DNA of 64,000 nt, from positions 6,312 to 70,311 of the IMG/VR virus record IMGVR_UViG_3300050821_004119. The stretch is one strand, 5' to 3'. The DNA comes from a virus. Made by a program: the position numbers and the translations under genes. Positions within the stretch are counted from its first letter, which is position 1. The number at the start of each line of letters is the position of its first letter. Below the pieces are notes generated by a model that searched no databases, was not told the DNA's origin, and saw only the letters and a program-made list of their open reading frames with translations. Below, piece by piece: positions 17,501 through 55,973 of this stretch.

Positions 17501-17553
17501 CTTTACAATCTTAGGGCTTGTGTCCCTAAAGTTTAGGTGTACAATGTCGATAT
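17501..17553 (+). promoter_or_regulatory. sigma28 (FliA/SigD)-like promoter P1 with upstream CTTTACAA box
   Basis: TAAAGTTT-N11-GTCGATAT, close to the TAAAGTTT-N11-GCCGATAA consensus. Confidence 0.7.
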
Positions 17554-18737: not shown

Positions 18738-18935
18738 CTATTCAGATTTTTCATGCCCAAGTATGCAATATGTAGCTACATGAGCACCTAGCAGGGCCGC
18801 CATGGCCTCCTTGAGGGTACAAAAGATAAGGGTGTAAAACTTATCTGTTTCCCCTTCCTTAATGTAGTAAGGAATCTGTACTTCGTATACCGCTTCTGTT
18901 CCGTAGTACTTTGTCTTTATTGTCGCGGTTTTCAT
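18738..18935 (-). CDS. hypothetical protein
   Basis: 65 aa, AAGGGA RBS. Confidence 0.6.
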   Translation of the reverse strand: MKTATIKTKYYGTEAVYEVQIPYYIKEGETDKFYTLIFCTLKEAMAALLGAHVATYCILGHEKSE

Positions 18936-19035
18936 GTTAGTCCCTTTCTTATGAAGTTTTCTTTCTTGTCGATATATTAGGATACAAAAGACACGATGTC
19001 GATAGGTCGAACAGGGAATATATTGTAAAGATGAT

Positions 19036-19088
19036 CTTTACAATTAAAGGTGACCTAATCCTTATGTTTTATGCTAGGATGTCGATAC
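19036..19088 (+). promoter_or_regulatory. sigma28-like promoter P3
   Basis: CTTTACAA 45 nt upstream of GTCGATAC; the box is part of the palindrome ATTGTAAAGAT-G-ATCTTTACAAT. Confidence 0.55.
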
Positions 19089-19109
19089 ATTAAACATAGG
19101 AGAACCATC

Positions 19110-19244
19110 ATGCGGATCTTCAGTAGTGTACAATCAGCAGTTGCAGCAGGGTTCCATGTTTGGGACCGAACACAGGATGGAAGCTTTCTGGTAAGGATCT
19201 TAACACCTAAAGGATATGCACTCGCTTTAGCGAAAGGAAATTAA
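19110..19244 (+). CDS. small hypothetical protein (44 aa)
   Basis: AGGAG RBS; MRIFSSVQSAVAAGFHVWDRTQDG... Confidence 0.65.
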   Translation: MRIFSSVQSAVAAGFHVWDRTQDGSFLVRILTPKGYALALAKGN

Positions 19245-19245
19245 C

Positions 19246-19356
19246 ATGGAAAACATTAAAGGCAATATCCCTGCGCCTATCGTATGGCGAGCACTTACTG
19301 CCGAGGAAGCATCCGATATGTTGACCTTCGTTCTAGGTGAGATACCCAGGAATTAA
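19246..19356 (+). CDS. small hypothetical protein (36 aa)
   Basis: AAGGA RBS; ends immediately before the ribozyme. Confidence 0.55.
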   Translation: MENIKGNIPAPIVWRALTAEEASDMLTFVLGEIPRN

Positions 19357-19359
19357 AGC

Positions 19360-19405
19360 CCGCCTGAAGAGTCCAAGCAGGACGAAACCCCGTAAGGGGT
19401 CGCGG
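19360..19405 (+). ncRNA. type I hammerhead ribozyme
   Basis: Stem I CCGC/GCGG, core CUGAAGA, stem II GUCC-aagca-GGAC, GAAA, stem III ACCCC-GUAA-GGGGU, GUC cleavage triplet (cut after C19401). Confidence 0.92.
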
Positions 19406-19437
19406 ATATACCGCAACATATACTAGGAGAATTTATA

Positions 19438-19584
19438 ATGCGTTACCTTTCAATCCTTGCGCTTCTCGCGCTTGCTGCTTGCGGTTCTTCAACGAACGCG
19501 CTTCCGACAACGACCTCCGTCTCACGCGCCCCTGCGTACTACCAGAATTGTACGGTTCCTGTGAAATGTGGTAATTTCCACTAA
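19438..19584 (+). CDS. micro-lipoprotein (48 aa)
   Basis: MRYLSILALLALAA|CGSS lipobox; AGGAG RBS; extra CxxxxxC pair near the C-terminus. Confidence 0.8.
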   Translation: MRYLSILALLALAACGSSTNALPTTTSVSRAPAYYQNCTVPVKCGNFH

Positions 19585-19601
19585 AACCTTGGGAAGGTCG
19601 T

Positions 19602-19630
19602 AAAAGGATGCTTTAATTGGCATCCTTTTT
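19602..19630 (+). terminator. intrinsic terminator
   Basis: AAAAGGATGC/GCATCCTTTT inverted repeat with T tract. Confidence 0.8.
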
Positions 19631-19684
19631 CTTTACAATTCTACGACATAAAACACTCAACAATCGCGGCATTTTATGCGATAA
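19631..19684 (+). promoter_or_regulatory. sigma28-like promoter P4
   Basis: CTTTACAA..TCAA-N16-TGCGATAA; 37-nt exact repeat with P5 (19672-19708 = 20407-20443). Confidence 0.6.
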
Positions 19685-19705
19685 TAAGTATAAGGGAGAA
19701 ACAAC

Positions 19706-19804
19706 ATGAACGCTCTAATCGCCGGAATCGTCGCTCTAGCAATAGTTCTAGCAATCGCCGCTAGCCAAACTCTCTCACATGCGGTAGCAGCACTTCCGTT
19801 CTAA
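19706..19804 (+). CDS. 32-aa hydrophobic (single-TM) peptide
   Basis: MNALIAGIVALAIVLAIAASQTLSHAVAALPF; GGGAG RBS. Confidence 0.65.
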   Translation: MNALIAGIVALAIVLAIAASQTLSHAVAALPF

Positions 19805-19816
19805 AGGAGAAATAAC

Positions 19817-19954
19817 ATGACGCAGAGCGAATACGACAAAGCATATATAAAACTATGTGAAAAACTCAAGAGTTTACAATCAGAATCTAGTTTAGACTTA
19901 GAAGCCTGGTTTGAACGACAAATTGATAAATTAGACAAAGAATTCATGACCTAA
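19817..19954 (+). CDS. small hypothetical protein (45 aa)
   Basis: AAGGAG RBS. Confidence 0.6.
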   Translation: MTQSEYDKAYIKLCEKLKSLQSESSLDLEAWFERQIDKLDKEFMT

Positions 19955-19970
19955 GTAGAGGAGAAACATC

Positions 19971-20096
19971 ATGCTTGCATTTATCTTCTTCACTCTTCTT
20001 TACGGATTCTGTTTAATAGGCATCTTGGCAGGGATATGGGCAGCAATTTGGATATTAGCATTAATCGCATCCTTCTTTCAAGGAGAAACAACATGA
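19971..20096 (+). CDS. small membrane peptide (41 aa)
   Basis: GAGGAG RBS; almost entirely hydrophobic. Confidence 0.6.
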   Translation: MLAFIFFTLLYGFCLIGILAGIWAAIWILALIASFFQGETT

Positions 20097-20269
20097 ACGT
20101 CTCGGCATCAATACAGAATGCAGAGTCCTGTTATTTGAACCGTATCGCAATGGCAGAGGTCGTTAAGATCATGCGTATAGCCGACAAGACTAACCAACAA
20201 ATGTCCCTAGCAGAGGAGCATCCGGTAAACGTGTTTTCTTATAATCCTAGACCTAACCAGGCATCGTAA
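20093..20269 (+). CDS. hypothetical protein (58 aa)
   Basis: AAGGAG RBS before MNVSASIQ. Confidence 0.6.
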   Translation: MNVSASIQNAESCYLNRIAMAEVVKIMRIADKTNQQMSLAEEHPVNVFSYNPRPNQAS

Positions 20270-21687: not shown

Positions 21688-21764
21688 GACGCTGTAGCTC
21701 AGCTGGTTAGAGCGCCGCCCTGTCACGGCGGAGGTCGAGGGTTCGAGCCCCTTCAGCGTCGCCA
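21688..21764 (+). tRNA. tRNA-Asp (GTC)
   Basis: GACGCTG/CAGCGTC acceptor stem, CCGCC-ctGTCac-GGCGG anticodon arm, GGTTCGAGCCC T arm, encoded CCA. Confidence 0.97.
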
Positions 21765-22196: not shown

Positions 22197-22271
22197 GGTC
22201 TGCTCGTCTATCGGTTAGGACGCTGGCCTTTCACGCCGGTAAGTAGGGTTCGACTCCCTAGCAGACTACCA
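22197..22271 (+). tRNA. tRNA-Glu (TTC)
   Basis: GGTCTGC/GCAGACT acceptor stem, CTGGC-ctTTCac-GCCGG anticodon arm, GGTTCGACTCC T arm, CCA. Confidence 0.96.
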
Positions 22272-22819: not shown

Positions 22820-23020
22820 ATGAAAAGCGTCTGGTGTGGAATATGCCGACAAGAATATAATTTCCCAAATGATATAGATCCGACGAAATGGGTTGATAGA
22901 CATATTGAAACACATCGACGTGATTTAACGAGTGCTGAAGAAGATTACGAAATAATGAATCAGCAAGCAGAAAAACATTCTCAAAATCTCAAGTTTAGTA
23001 AAATGTACAACAGGAGTTGA
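22820..23020 (+). CDS. small zinc-finger-like protein
   Basis: AAGGAG RBS; CGIC..H...H. Confidence 0.55.
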   Translation: MKSVWCGICRQEYNFPNDIDPTKWVDRHIETHRRDLTSAEEDYEIMNQQAEKHSQNLKFSKMYNRS

Positions 23021-23151: not shown

Positions 23152-23337
23152 ATGGAATCCGTGGAAATTCTTAAAATGATTAATGTAGGGGATCATGTGA
23201 CTCACAAACACTTTGGTGAAGGTATTGTGATTGAGATCGAACCAATTGTGGTTGAGTTTCATCCCAAACCATTTGTAAAGATTTTCAATGTTTTCAACTC
23301 TGTGCAGTTGGATGTGGTAAAATCTGTGCATGAATAA
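23152..23337 (+). CDS. small SH3-like protein
   Basis: VGDHVTHKHFGEGIV motif. Confidence 0.55.
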   Translation: MESVEILKMINVGDHVTHKHFGEGIVIEIEPIVVEFHPKPFVKIFNVFNSVQLDVVKSVHE

Positions 23338-24025
23338 TAATTATATTGCTTACTATCGGGTCAGCACGAAGGATCAAGGTCGGTCAGGTCTTGGTCTTGA
23401 AGCACAAGAAGCAACTGTAAAAGAATACTGTTTGAAGAATGATTTGAATTTGATTGCTTCTTATACAGAGGTTGAGACTAGCACAAAAGATACATTGGAA
23501 AATCGTCCAGTGTTACAAAAAGCTCTTGGGCATTCTAAGAGAATTAGTGCTGTATTAATTATAGCCAAACTTGATCGACTTTCTCGCTCTGTGTATGTTA
23601 CTTCATTATTACATAAGTCTGGTGTGGAATTTTTGTGCTGTGATATGCCATTAGCCAATAGGTTCACTATTAATATTCTTGCAGCAGTTGCTGAACAAGA
23701 AGCGCAAATGATTAGTGAACGTACTAAGGCAGCATTAAAGGCTTTAAAAGCCCGTGGTATTAAGTTAGGTACTCATCGTCCAGAGTGTGCTAATAATTTA
23801 TCTGAAGAAGGAAGACAACTTGGTAATAAACGAGGTTCTTCTAGGAATCGACAGATTAAAAAAGAGGCTTACGCTGATATACTTCCAGAGATTGTGGCAA
23901 TGCGTCATAGTGGCATGCAGATTAAAGATATTACTTTAACCCTCAATGATAAGGGTTATACAACTCGTACAGGTTGTGGTTTTCATACAACAACTGTTCG
24001 GCGCTTACTTGCATTAGGAGTTTGA
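23330..24025 (+). CDS. serine recombinase (resolvase/invertase family)
   Basis: AYYRVST catalytic Ser, RP.L, KLDRLSR, ISERTK, G..LG, C-terminal DNA-binding helices. Confidence 0.93.
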   Translation: MNNNYIAYYRVSTKDQGRSGLGLEAQEATVKEYCLKNDLNLIASYTEVETSTKDTLENRPVLQKALGHSKRISAVLIIAKLDRLSRSVYVTSLLHKSGVEFLCCDMPLANRFTINILAAVAEQEAQMISERTKAALKALKARGIKLGTHRPECANNLSEEGRQLGNKRGSSRNRQIKKEAYADILPEIVAMRHSGMQIKDITLTLNDKGYTTRTGCGFHTTTVRRLLALGV

Positions 24026-55062: not shown

Positions 55063-55362
55063 ATGAGAAATCCAATATTAATTGGTTCAATGCTTCCGCT
55101 TGCTAATCTAGGCTTCGCGACCTCGGTTGTGAACCCGATTGCACAGTTTGGAACGAACCTGACCCAGCCTGAGGCACAAGTTTTATCCTCGCTTATTACG
55201 ATTTGCGGTTCTTTCGGTGTAGCCCTGTTTATGTGGTTCCTGAATAACAACAAGAATAATCCTAATAAGAACAGAGAAGTCGTTACGTACAGTCGTACTT
55301 CTCCTACGCCGCAACCCACTGAAATTATCAGTGATGTGAAAAAGGAAGTAAACAATTTATGA
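55063..55362 (+). CDS. holin-like membrane protein
   Basis: Hydrophobic segments; overlaps the endolysin start. Confidence 0.5.
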   Translation: MRNPILIGSMLPLANLGFATSVVNPIAQFGTNLTQPEAQVLSSLITICGSFGVALFMWFLNNNKNNPNKNREVVTYSRTSPTPQPTEIISDVKKEVNNL

Positions 55363-55973
55363 TTATCGACGTTTCGGAATTTCAGGGAGAAATCGAGTTC
55401 AAAAAGGTCGCAGACTCTAAAGAGATAAATGCCGTGTACATTCGCGCGACTCAAGGCGTTCATACCGTCGATTCAAAATTTGCTGAATACCACGATGGTT
55501 TCAAGGCTGTGGGCATCCCCGTCGGGGCATACCACTTCTTCGAATTCATGGCAAATCCAGCACAACAAGCACAGCATTTCATCAATACAATTGCTGGTCG
55601 CGAAGGTGATTTGATGCCGATGGTCGATTGCGAAGCTGGCGGACTTGTTGGACATTCTGATTTAGGCGATAAGATTCAGTGGTTACATACATACAACCAG
55701 TTTTTGTTAAATCATATGGAAACTAAGAATCTATTGATTTATACGGCATTATCATTCTGGAATGATGAATATCATGGAACTGGTTCGTTTGCCGGGCATC
55801 CTTTATGGATTGCTGAGTATAATAACGACAAAGAACCAACGCTTCCTAATGGTTTTACAAAATGGACACTTTGGCAACATACCGATCAAGGTCATATTGC
55901 CGGGATTACCCAAAATACTGTGGACCTCAACCGTTTAAACGGACCTGATCTTTCTGATATTAAGAGAGTTTAA
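55359..55973 (+). CDS. GH25 muramidase endolysin
   Basis: IDVSEFQG, RATQG, GAYHF, DCE (DxE), LWIAEY, WQHTDQG, VDLN. Confidence 0.93.
   Translation: MIIDVSEFQGEIEFKKVADSKEINAVYIRATQGVHTVDSKFAEYHDGFKAVGIPVGAYHFFEFMANPAQQAQHFINTIAGREGDLMPMVDCEAGGLVGHSDLGDKIQWLHTYNQFLLNHMETKNLLIYTALSFWNDEYHGTGSFAGHPLWIAEYNNDKEPTLPNGFTKWTLWQHTDQGHIAGITQNTVDLNRLNGPDLSDIKRV

What the first reader, a model, noticed from the sequence alone, without database searches (positions are those of the whole stretch)
19356..19630. Hammerhead ribozyme that would release a stand-alone micro-lipoprotein mRNA with a refolded 5' hairpin
Seen: a complete type I hammerhead begins a few nt after the upstream stop codon, with predicted cleavage after GUC 19401. 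The 3' product starts GCGG-AUAUA-CCGC, so the stem I 3' strand has a second perfect partner (CCGC 19411-19414). This is followed by an AGGAG RBS, a 48-aa lipoprotein (LAA|C) and a strong terminator. Established: hammerhead cleavage leaves a 5'-OH, and small phage lipoproteins (Llp, Cor) mediate superinfection exclusion. Inference: self-processing gives a stable ~230-nt mRNA with a 5'-OH and a protective hairpin. The competing hairpin may act as a switch or block re-ligation, sustaining production of an exclusion lipoprotein. This ribozyme-lipoprotein cassette is my best candidate for a novel system in the window.
Basis: partly seen in the sequence, partly recalled or inferred. Interest (0 to 1): 0.85.

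Follow-up and report, generated by a model that had tools for sequence, protein, structure and literature searches.

The report
Hammerhead ribozyme upstream of phage lipoprotein
A soil phage carries a textbook self-cutting hammerhead RNA between two small genes, an arrangement already known from many phages, and the small hairpin that forms at the new RNA end recurs in many such ribozymes and has no special tie to the lipoprotein gene behind it.

Summary
Window 19358-19407 (+) is a complete type I hammerhead (Rfam RF00163, 33.4 bits against a cut-off of 34, E 1.8e-4 for the window). It is the only one in this 70-kb phage. The cut falls after C19401. GCGG 19402-05 can pair either with CCGC 19360-63 (stem I) or with CCGC 19411-14 (hairpin, -6.2 kcal/mol). 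An AGGAG site, a 48-aa lipobox ORF and a terminator follow.

It is not a ribozyme-lipoprotein system. Phage contigs hold many type I hammerheads placed stop codon, ribozyme, about 32 nt, start codon. Perreault 2011 already proposed that such ribozymes cut phage operons into gene-length mRNAs. Only 1 of 123 downstream ORFs, ours, has a lipobox, and the lipoprotein has no relatives.

The hairpin is more than chance. In 160 non-redundant phage type I hammerheads, 47 cleavage products start with such a hairpin, against 16 to 25 expected. Most of these have stem I of 4-5 bp (35 of 65). A small replicate in cellular genomes was weak (15 of 35; z 1.9).

By secondary-structure energies the hairpin beats stem I before cleavage here, and no pseudoknot supports the active fold, so activity is unproven. 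This scan has noted phage hammerheads on other DNA before.

The parts
19036..19088 (+). Promoter-like element: a CTTTACAA box, then about 37 nt, then TGTCGATAC. It probably starts the transcript that carries the ribozyme.
Evidence: The same layout (CTTTACAA, about 37 nt, TGTCGATAY or TGCGATAA, about 12 nt, RBS, ATG) occurs at 17501, 19036, 19631 and 20366 on the + strand. The sigma factor is not established.
19110..19244 (+). First small ORF of the unit. It is 44 aa from the ATG behind AGGAG; the ORF listing extends it to 19071 as 57 aa.
   Evidence: No PHROG family.
19246..19356 (+). Second small ORF, 36 aa. Its TAA stop at 19354-56 lies 1 nt before the hammerhead match (19358) and 3 nt before stem I (19360).
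   Evidence: No PHROG family.
19358..19407 (+). Type I hammerhead ribozyme: stem I 19360-63/19402-05, core CUGAAGA 19364-70, stem-loop II 19371-83, GAAA 19384-87, stem-loop III 19387-19400, GUC 19399-19401. The predicted cut is between 19401 and 19402.
   Evidence: Rfam RF00163 at 33.4 bits, model positions 1-45. The minimum-energy fold is the hammerhead fold. Pairs checked.
19402..19414 (+). Hairpin GCGG-AUAUA-CCGC that reuses the 3' strand of stem I. It sits flush at the 5' end of the predicted 3' product.
   Evidence: Class-level enrichment.
19425..19429 (+). Shine-Dalgarno AGGAG, 8 nt before the ATG.
19438..19584 (+). 48-aa ORF with a signal peptide and the lipobox LAAC (Cys15). The mature part is 34 aa with two further Cys. 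It has no relatives.
   Evidence: No relatives.
19602..19636 (+). Intrinsic terminator: an 11-bp stem, a 6-nt loop and a U run. The next CTTTACAA box (19631) overlaps its tail.
   Evidence: (z -4.2; 0 of 200 shuffles fold as well).

Best explanation
This is an ordinary member of the large class of intergenic type I hammerhead ribozymes of tailed phages.

The proposed mechanism is as follows. A phage promoter near 19036-19088 probably drives a transcript of about 540 nt holding three small ORFs and ending at the terminator at 19602-19636. The hammerhead sits between ORF 2 and ORF 3. If it cuts after C19401 it splits the transcript in two. The 5' piece carries the two small ORFs and ends in the folded ribozyme with a 2',3'-cyclic phosphate. 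The 3' piece is about 235 nt with a 5'-OH and carries only the lipoprotein gene. Once the two pieces part, GCGG 19402-05 re-pairs with CCGC 19411-14. This gives a hairpin flush with the new 5' end.

I read that hairpin as a recurrent accessory of short-stem-I phage hammerheads. It would make cleavage one-way by trapping the product strand. It would also give the downstream mRNA a structured, 5'-OH end that is hard for 5'-end-dependent decay to attack. This is the natural counterpart of the synthetic RiboJ insulator, which is a hammerhead plus a hairpin plus an RBS.

The module is generic. The lipoprotein is simply the gene that lies behind it here, and its function is unknown.

Shown: the motif, its stems, the alternative pairing, the gene layout and the class-wide enrichment. 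Inferred: the transcript limits, cleavage in vivo, and the trap and protection roles.
For: Motif. RF00163 scores 33.4 bits with E 1.8e-4 for the window, and this is the only hit in the genome. All three stems are Watson-Crick and there is no mispair next to the core.

Class context. Of 134 non-redundant type I hammerheads with enough flank, 123 have an ORF of at least 30 aa starting within 90 nt of the cut. The median distance is 32 nt (IQR 26-41), and ours is 36. In 87 of the 134 the upstream stop codon lies in or against the ribozyme. Perreault 2011 proposed that such ribozymes process phage transcripts into single-gene mRNAs, and reported a halovirus 5' end mapped within 3 nt of a hammerhead cut (passages read).

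Hairpin.
- In 160 non-redundant hammerheads chosen only by their stem II, 47 products start with a hairpin of -3 kcal/mol or better with nt 1 or 2 paired.
- The expectation is 16.3+-3.3 when tails are swapped between loci (0 of 300 permutations reach 47) and 24.8+-3.8 when each tail is shuffled (z 5.8).
- By stem I length the counts are 24 of 38 (4 bp), 11 of 27 (5 bp), 11 of 81 (6 bp) and 1 of 14 (7 bp or more).
- Within the 4-5 bp class it is 35 of 65 against 17.9+-2.7. Without the GCGG members it is 21 of 49 against 11.7+-2.3.
- The helix sequence differs between loci: GCGG/CCGC, UGGC/GCCA, GUGGG/CCCAC, UGGG/CCCA, CGGG/CCCG and others.
- The mirror control is flat. An upstream partner for the 5' strand occurs in 19 of 160 against 14.0+-3.7.
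- Where the product's first 40 nt fold at -3 or better (92 of 160), the first paired base is nt 1 in 44 and nt 2 in 15.

RiboJ. It is a hammerhead followed by a 23-nt hairpin, and its terminal hairpin has been suggested to stabilise the mRNA (passages).
Against: The Rfam score is 0.6 bits below the curated cut-off.

Stem I has only 4 bp, and no complement of 3 nt or more between loop II and the tail exists here. Among short-stem-I members, 26 of 65 have such a pseudoknot of 4 nt or more.

In the uncut RNA (19350-19440) the nearest-neighbour ensemble gives P(stem I) 0.001 and P(hairpin) 0.99. The hammerhead fold is -19.2, the hairpin fold -20.1 and the minimum-energy fold -22.9 kcal/mol. Ours lies at the extreme of the class: 3.4 kcal/mol above the minimum, against a median of 1.6. 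The hairpin may therefore block cleavage rather than follow it.

The replicate in cellular genomes is weak. It gives 15 of 35 against 14.0+-2.1 by tail swapping (208 of 500 permutations reach it) and 10.7+-2.3 by own-tail shuffling (z 1.9). Fifteen of those 35 share GCGG. In that set an upstream partner is equally enriched (9 of 35, z 1.9).

The Shine-Dalgarno site is not more open in the product than in the precursor by partition function.

No relative of this phage was found, so there is no covariation at this locus itself. No RNA data exist.
Confidence: 0.55

Rival explanations
1. The hammerhead is locked or throttled. The ribozyme motif is intact, but the downstream CCGC captures the stem I 3' strand as soon as it is transcribed. 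Little or no cutting then happens, and the lipoprotein is translated from the uncut three-gene mRNA. The hairpin is an inhibitor or a relic, not a post-cleavage device.
For: One search gives P(stem I) 0.001 against P(hairpin) 0.99. Adding only 9 nt (to 19416) moves the minimum-energy fold from the hammerhead fold to the hairpin plus a misfolded stem II. There is no pseudoknot. Ours is at the extreme of the class for this competition. The Rfam score is just under the cut-off.
Against: The core and all three stems are perfect. In the class, 18 of 35 hairpin-bearing short-stem members also show P(stem I) below 0.05 yet keep intact cores, which suggests the energy model understates the active fold. 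Nearest-neighbour models ignore the tertiary structure of the core.
Confidence: 0.25
2. The element is a translation-gated switch. A ribosome terminating at TAA 19354-56 covers the stem I 5' strand, so GCGG sits in the hairpin. When the upstream ORFs are not translated, stem I forms and the RNA is cut. Cleavage would thus report on upstream translation.
For: The stop codon lies 3 nt before the stem I 5' strand. In the class the upstream stop is the UGA of CUGA in 42 of 134 and lies within or against the 5' strand in 45 of 134.
Against: Compact phage genomes would place stops there anyway. The 5' strand has no enriched alternative partner upstream in the viral set (19 of 160 against 14.0+-3.7). 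There is no experimental data.
Confidence: 0.12
3. This is the first reader's reading: a dedicated ribozyme-lipoprotein cassette that sustains production of a superinfection-exclusion lipoprotein.
For: There is a canonical signal peptide and lipobox, a strong RBS and its own terminator. From memory, small phage lipoproteins such as T5 Llp and Cor do exclude superinfection.
Against: Only 1 of 123 downstream ORFs in the class has a lipobox, and it is this one. By eye, the look-alike hammerheads precede an ArdC-like gene (L035) and a beta-helix tailspike-like gene (L233). The lipoprotein has no PHROG family, no word-sharing homologue and only 2 weak low-complexity hits in 1.84 billion representatives.
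Confidence: 0.05
4. It is a chance match with no function.
For: It is below the Rfam gathering score. Sub-threshold hits at E up to 1 occur in 4 of 14 control genomes. No relative is available to show conservation.
Against: E is 1.8e-4 for the window. The full-length model match has 13 Watson-Crick pairs and a GNRA loop. It sits exactly in a 78-nt intergenic gap on the coding strand, at the class-typical distance from the next start codon.
Confidence: 0.04

Closest known systems
Intergenic hammerhead ribozymes flanking single genes or short gene blocks in phages and prophages (Perreault et al. 2011, PMC3088659; passages read)
   Same: A consensus hammerhead on the coding strand between phage genes. 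It is proposed to cut long transcripts into gene-length mRNAs. A halovirus example lies 13 nt before a start codon with a 5' end mapped nearby.
   Different: There is a single ribozyme here rather than a flanking pair or cluster. The passages I read do not mention a hairpin that reuses the stem I 3' strand.
Pseudoknot-stabilised type I hammerheads, where loop II pairs with the tail 3' of a short stem I (Perreault 2011)
   Same: A short 4-5 bp stem I, with the functional tail immediately 3' of it. Close look-alikes (L137, L233, L125, L152, L154, L181) have both the pseudoknot and the hairpin.
   Different: This one has no loop II-tail complement of 3 nt or more.
RiboJ synthetic insulator: sTRSV hammerhead plus a 23-nt hairpin in front of an RBS (PMC6206723 and PMC8794103, passages read)
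   Same: The same order of parts: ribozyme, hairpin at the new 5' end, RBS, gene. The terminal hairpin is thought to raise mRNA abundance.
   Different: RiboJ is engineered, uses a type III ribozyme, and its hairpin is a separate add-on. Here the hairpin is built from the ribozyme's own stem I strand and so competes with the active fold.
RAGATH-1 (pseudoknot) hammerhead, Rfam RF03152 (structure paper PMC11300833, passages read)
   Same: A hammerhead core with an extra hairpin.
   Different: That hairpin lies 5' of the ribozyme and replaces helix II. The score here is 21.1 bits against a cut-off of 56.3, so this is not a member.
Superinfection-exclusion lipoproteins Llp (T5) and Cor (phi80, N15), recalled from memory and not from any call
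   Same: A small phage-encoded lipoprotein expressed from an early-type region.
   Different: No sequence similarity to anything. The mature part is only 34 aa. It is not next to a receptor-binding protein gene.
Earlier scan note e1-3481804, 'stop-codon-locked hammerheads' in another phage
   Same: An alternative hairpin that competes with a hammerhead strand and recurs across phages.
   Different: That hairpin is upstream and holds the stop codon. Here the partner is downstream and ends up on the product.

Membership tests
Hammerhead ribozyme, type I (Rfam RF00163) | Conserved core: CUGANGA, GAAA, and a UH cleavage triplet | tested here: met
   CUGAAGA 19364-70, GAAA 19384-87, GUC 19399-19401.
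Hammerhead ribozyme, type I (Rfam RF00163) | Three helices around the core with no mispair next to the core, and helix I open (type I topology) | tested here: met
   Stem I has 4 bp, stem II 4 bp and stem III 5 bp, all Watson-Crick. The minimum-energy fold of 19358-19407 is this fold.
Hammerhead ribozyme, type I (Rfam RF00163) | Score at or above the curated gathering threshold | tested here: inconclusive
   33.4 bits against 34. E is 1.8e-4 for the window.
Hammerhead ribozyme, type I (Rfam RF00163) | A tertiary contact between loop II and stem I or its tail, needed for fast cleavage at low Mg2+ | tested here: not met
   No Watson-Crick complement of 3 nt or more between loop II (CAAGCAG) and the 14-nt tail. 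Non-canonical contacts cannot be assessed with these tools.
Hammerhead ribozyme, type I (Rfam RF00163) | Self-cleavage giving a 2',3'-cyclic phosphate and a 5'-OH | not testable with these tools
   No RNA run holds the stretch.
RAGATH-1 hammerhead (RF03152) | Covariance-model score over the cut-off, with a 5' hairpin forming the pseudoknot | tested here: not met
   21.1 bits against 56.3.
Bacterial lipoprotein precursor | An N-terminal basic residue, a hydrophobic stretch, and a lipobox [LVI][ASTVI][GAS]C | tested here: met
   The sequence starts M-R-Y, then a hydrophobic run, then L-A-A-C at residues 12-15. Lipidation itself was not tested.
Superinfection-exclusion lipoproteins (Llp, Cor) | Sequence or profile similarity to a known member | tested here: not met
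   No PHROG family. No homologue. Only 2 weak multi-stretch hits to proteins of 460-490 aa.
o-spanin (Rz1-like lipoprotein) | The gene lies in the lysis cassette, next to or inside an i-spanin gene | tested here: not met
   The endolysin is at 55359-55973, about 36 kb away. The neighbours here are tiny ORFs without any family.

The most novel reading that the evidence does not exclude
Short-stem-I type I hammerheads of phages carry a built-in third strand, a downstream copy of the stem I 5' strand. After cleavage it captures the product's first bases into a hairpin flush with the new 5' end. In several members the same tail pairs with loop II as a pseudoknot before cleavage, and loop II mimics the stem I 3' strand. 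This would be a natural one-way switch. It would drive product release and cap the downstream mRNA with a 5'-OH stem-loop, making it a natural forerunner of the RiboJ design. I did not find it described in the papers I searched. This locus would be a pseudoknot-less example.
Probability: 0.35. Interest if true: 0.6.

Novelty: new variant of a known kind. Interest (0 to 1): 0.42.

Why it matters
What the many hammerheads in phage genomes do is still an open question. The 2019 review PMC6765202 (passages read) says that processing of polycistronic transcripts has been suggested but needs more work. This locus adds nothing new on that point. The lipoprotein link that made it look special does not hold.

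What may matter is the pattern it led to. Roughly half of the short-stem-I phage hammerheads sampled here produce a downstream mRNA that starts with a flush hairpin built from the ribozyme's own strand, and the upstream side shows no such bias. If real, this points to the 3' product, the mRNA of the next gene, as the thing being shaped. It also gives a simple handle for experiments on mRNA stability and cleavage irreversibility, and a set of natural, compact insulator parts.

Tried and rejected
Relatives of this phage.
- blastn of 18900-20100 against the phage collection found nothing.
- The search for related loci with the 131-aa ORF and with the lipoprotein found nothing.
- A scan for the stem II and loop (A)AGCA found 3 viral and 33 metagenome stretches. 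Most are not type I, and none is a homologue of this ribozyme with its tail.
- Locus-level covariation is therefore unavailable.

RNA evidence. No RNA holder was listed. Two DNA runs were listed, and one may be the source. Laying them gave identical contigs and no cover of the ribozyme in the second run.

Exposure of the RBS. By partition function the Shine-Dalgarno site is not more open in the product than in the precursor, so I dropped that claim.

Trans targets and further cores. The 10-nt cut-site word occurs only at the ribozyme itself. A second CUGANGA..CGAAA match at 22935 has no stem II and is at chance level.

Minus-strand terminator-like hairpin at 19381..19359. It needs three G-U pairs that become C-A on the + strand, has a poor U run, and has no gene upstream on that strand. 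I rejected it as a by-product of the ribozyme sequence.

Composition. G+C is about 0.50 at the ribozyme and lipoprotein against about 0.42 nearby. I judged this unremarkable.

Formal pair counting with the count of structure pairs was not run. A set picked for having the hairpin would show covariation by construction.

Dataset 2 (16 of 24 GCGG-type hammerheads have CCGC within 3-15 nt) was selected on GCGG, and I computed no control for it.

The tail-swap control has no power where most members share one helix sequence (genome set).

Supplements of Perreault 2011 were not available and may show alignments that bear on the hairpin.
Full report
WHAT IS THERE. The window is bases 6312-70311 of a 70,311-bp virus record with direct terminal repeats. 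PHROG matches to a terminase, a major head protein, a 1906-aa tape measure protein, a helicase, a ribonucleotide reductase and an endolysin show a tailed phage that is distant from described ones. The only runs that hold it are labelled soil metagenome.

The finding lies in a stretch of tiny + strand ORFs (about 17.5-21 kb) between the replication genes and the structural genes. Stem I is CCGC 19360-63 with GCGG 19402-05. The core is CUGAAGA. Stem II has 4 bp with loop AAGCA. GAAA follows. Stem III has 5 bp with a GUAA loop. GUC ends at 19401. One search checked every pair.

Rfam's type I hammerhead model matches 19358-19407 end to end at 33.4 bits. The gathering score is 34. E is 1.4e-6 for the 501-nt search, 1.8e-4 for the whole window and 4.6e-8 in the genome search. 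It is the only hammerhead in the genome. In the same call, sub-threshold matches at E up to 1 appeared in 4 of 14 control genomes, and none was over the cut-off. The isolated 50 nt fold into the hammerhead shape. I treat the motif as real.

THE TRANSCRIPTION UNIT. I checked this. Four + strand sites (17501, 19036, 19631, 20366) share the same layout: CTTTACAA, about 37 nt, TGTCGATAY or TGCGATAA, about 12 nt, an RBS and an ATG.

The unit here would then be as follows:
- promoter 19036-19088;
- a 44-aa ORF (19110-19244);
- a 36-aa ORF (19246-19356);
- the hammerhead;
- AGGAG 19425-29;
- the 48-aa lipobox ORF (19438-19584);
- a strong terminator (19602-19636), whose tail overlaps the next promoter box.

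The transcript limits are inferred and not shown. Cleavage would give a 5' piece of about 300 nt with two ORFs and a 3' piece of about 235 nt with the lipoprotein gene.

IS IT SPECIAL? Most hits are type I hammerheads lying just after a stop codon and shortly before an RBS and start codon. Several contigs hold 3-5 of them between consecutive genes.

In 134 non-redundant examples with enough flank, 123 have an ORF of at least 30 aa starting within 90 nt of the cut. The median distance is 32 nt (IQR 26-41), and ours is 36. The upstream stop is the UGA of CUGA in 42, within or against the 5' strand in 45, further upstream in 28, and not found in 19.

Perreault et al. 2011 already reported hammerheads flanking single genes in prophages. 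They proposed that long phage transcripts are processed into operon-length or gene-length mRNAs (passages read). A 2019 review repeats this as a suggestion still in need of work. The locus is therefore a member of a known kind.

Only 1 of the 123 downstream ORFs passes a lipobox filter, and it is this one. By eye, the closest look-alike ribozymes precede an ArdC-like gene (L035), a beta-helix tailspike-like gene (L233) and a tiny ORF (L137). The lipoprotein has no PHROG family and no homologue by word search. It has only two weak, multi-stretch hits among 1.84 billion representatives. The endolysin is 36 kb away, so a spanin role is unlikely. 'Ribozyme-lipoprotein cassette' and 'exclusion protein' are therefore unsupported.

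THE HAIRPIN.

At this locus the first 24 nt of the product fold as GCGG-AUAUA-CCGC at -6.2 kcal/mol, and 0 of 200 shuffles fold as well.

Across phages I used hammerheads chosen only by their stem II sequence, so that stem I and the tail were free. The steps were:
- I kept matches with stem I of at least 4 bp, stem II of at least 4 bp and stem III of at least 3 bp, with 60 nt of upstream and 120 nt of downstream flank.
- That left 220 valid matches.
- An 8-mer redundancy filter reduced them to 160, and this locus is one of them.

Forty-seven of the 160 products begin with a hairpin of -3 kcal/mol or better that pairs nt 1 or 2. The expectation is 16.3+-3.3 when tails are swapped between loci (0 of 300 permutations reach 47). 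It is 24.8+-3.8 when each tail is shuffled in place (z 5.8).

The feature tracks a short stem I: 24 of 38 at 4 bp, 11 of 27 at 5 bp, 11 of 81 at 6 bp and 1 of 14 at 7 bp or more. Within the 4-5 bp class it is 35 of 65 against 17.9+-2.7. Without the GCGG-type members it is 21 of 49 against 11.7+-2.3. In both cases 0 of 500 permutations reach the observed count.

A simpler exact-complement test gave 17 of 91 against 7.3+-2.5 in the first set. It gave 21 of 79 against 6.7+-2.3 in the second. With loops limited to 8 nt and GCGG excluded, the result is weaker: 6 of 67 against 2.3+-1.4, and 63 of 3000 permutations reach it.

The helix differs between loci (GCGG/CCGC, UGGC/GCCA, GUGGG/CCCAC, UGGG/CCCA, CGGG/CCCG and others), so the pairing is kept through sequence change.

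The mirror control is flat. The 5' strand has an upstream partner in 19 of 160 against 14.0+-3.7 (36 of 300 permutations reach it). Of the 92 products whose first 40 nt fold at -3 or better, the first paired base is nt 1 in 44, nt 2 in 15 and nt 3 in 10.

Among hammerheads picked for a GCGG 3' strand, 16 of 24 have CCGC within 15 nt, and 10 of these have 4-5 nt loops. I computed no control for that set.

In several of these (L137, L233, L125, L152, L154, L181, L199) the same tail also complements loop II, as read by eye. This is the pseudoknot described by Perreault 2011. Loop II resembles the stem I 3' strand, so the tail can swap partners.

RESULTS AGAINST. A replicate in cellular genome contigs is small and weak. 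It has 35 non-redundant type I hammerheads from 114 pattern matches with flanks. Fifteen of the 35 have the hairpin, against 14.0+-2.1 by tail swapping (208 of 500 permutations reach it). Against own-tail shuffling the expectation is 10.7+-2.3 (z 1.9), and the short-stem subset gives 13 of 25 against 7.8+-2.0 (z 2.6). Fifteen of the 35 share GCGG, which blunts the swap control. In that set the upstream partner is enriched to the same degree (9 of 35, z 1.9). My redundancy filter does not remove deeper relatedness, so effective sample sizes are smaller than stated.

At this locus the hairpin looks too strong for comfort. In the uncut RNA the ensemble gives stem I 0.001 and the hairpin 0.99. Adding just 9 nt to the ribozyme flips the minimum-energy fold away from the hammerhead. 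The cost of forcing the hammerhead fold is 3.4 kcal/mol, against a class median of 1.6. There is no loop II-tail complement of even 3 nt, whereas 26 of 65 short-stem members have one of 4 nt or more. Energy models leave out the tertiary structure of the hammerhead core, and 18 of 35 hairpin-bearing relatives show the same imbalance with intact cores. Even so, activity in vivo is an open question. The Shine-Dalgarno site is not predicted to open up after cleavage.

HOW IT MOST LIKELY WORKS. I commit, at 0.55, to the following. The ribozyme cuts the three-gene early transcript after C19401. The weak 4-bp stem I lets the halves part. The product strand then snaps into the hairpin, which prevents re-association and re-ligation. 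This leaves a 5'-OH stem-loop at the very end of a lipoprotein mRNA bounded by its own terminator.

That is what the synthetic RiboJ part does by design. RiboJ is a hammerhead followed by a hairpin before the RBS, and its terminal hairpin is thought to raise mRNA abundance (passages). That a 5'-OH and a flush 5' stem-loop slow 5'-end-dependent decay in bacteria is my recollection of the RNase E and RppH literature. It comes from no call.

The main rival, at 0.25, is that the hairpin holds this particular ribozyme mostly off.

NOVELTY AND SCORE. A hammerhead before a phage gene is known. This scan has also noted many phage hammerheads on other DNA: 1241 notes hold the search words.

I did not find the product hairpin, as a recurrent third strand of short-stem-I type I hammerheads, in the papers I searched. 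For those papers I saw listings and passages only, and no supplements. I therefore file the locus as a new variant of a known kind with moderate interest. The value lies in the class-wide pattern, not in the lipoprotein.

Noticed in passing
window 17501, 19036, 19631, 20366 (+): Four copies of one promoter-like layout: CTTTACAA, about 37 nt, TGTCGATAY or TGCGATAA, about 12 nt, RBS, ATG. Each heads a tiny-ORF unit. The last two copies are nearly identical from the -10-like box through the RBS.
   Followed up: partly
window 18960-19090: The gap between the divergent 65-aa minus-strand ORF (18738-18935) and the + strand unit holds three TGTCGATA words. It also holds a perfect 9-bp inverted repeat (TTGTAAAGA-TGA-TCTTTACAA, about 19022-19042) that contains the CTTTACAA box. 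It looks like an operator.
   Followed up: no
window 19381..19359 (-): A terminator-like hairpin on the minus strand lies over the 5' half of the hammerhead (10 pairs, three of them G-U). It is probably a by-product of the ribozyme sequence.
   Followed up: partly
L199, L261, L284, L290, L118, L189, L154 (viral contigs): Other phage contigs carry 3-5 type I hammerheads within a few kb, one before each gene. In L199 three of them share almost the same 20-nt tail after the cut.
   Followed up: partly
L137, L233, L181, L125, L152, L154 (viral contigs): Loop II mimics the stem I 3' strand. The tail after the cut can therefore pair either with loop II (pseudoknot) or with the product's own first bases (hairpin). 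In L137 and L233 the product starts with a 12-nt perfect palindrome.
   Followed up: partly
134 phage hammerhead loci: The upstream gene's stop codon is the UGA inside the CUGA core box in 42 of 134. It lies within or against the stem I 5' strand in another 45.
   Followed up: partly
window 23330-24025 (+): A serine recombinase or invertase-like gene (PHROG integrase / DNA invertase, E about 1e-33 to 1e-31) lies just before the packaging genes, in a phage with terminal repeats.
   Followed up: no
window 21688-21761 and 22197-22268 (+): Two tRNA genes lie 2.3-2.8 kb downstream of the ribozyme. The first draws very high depth from many unrelated contigs in both metagenome runs, as expected for a conserved tRNA.
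   Followed up: no
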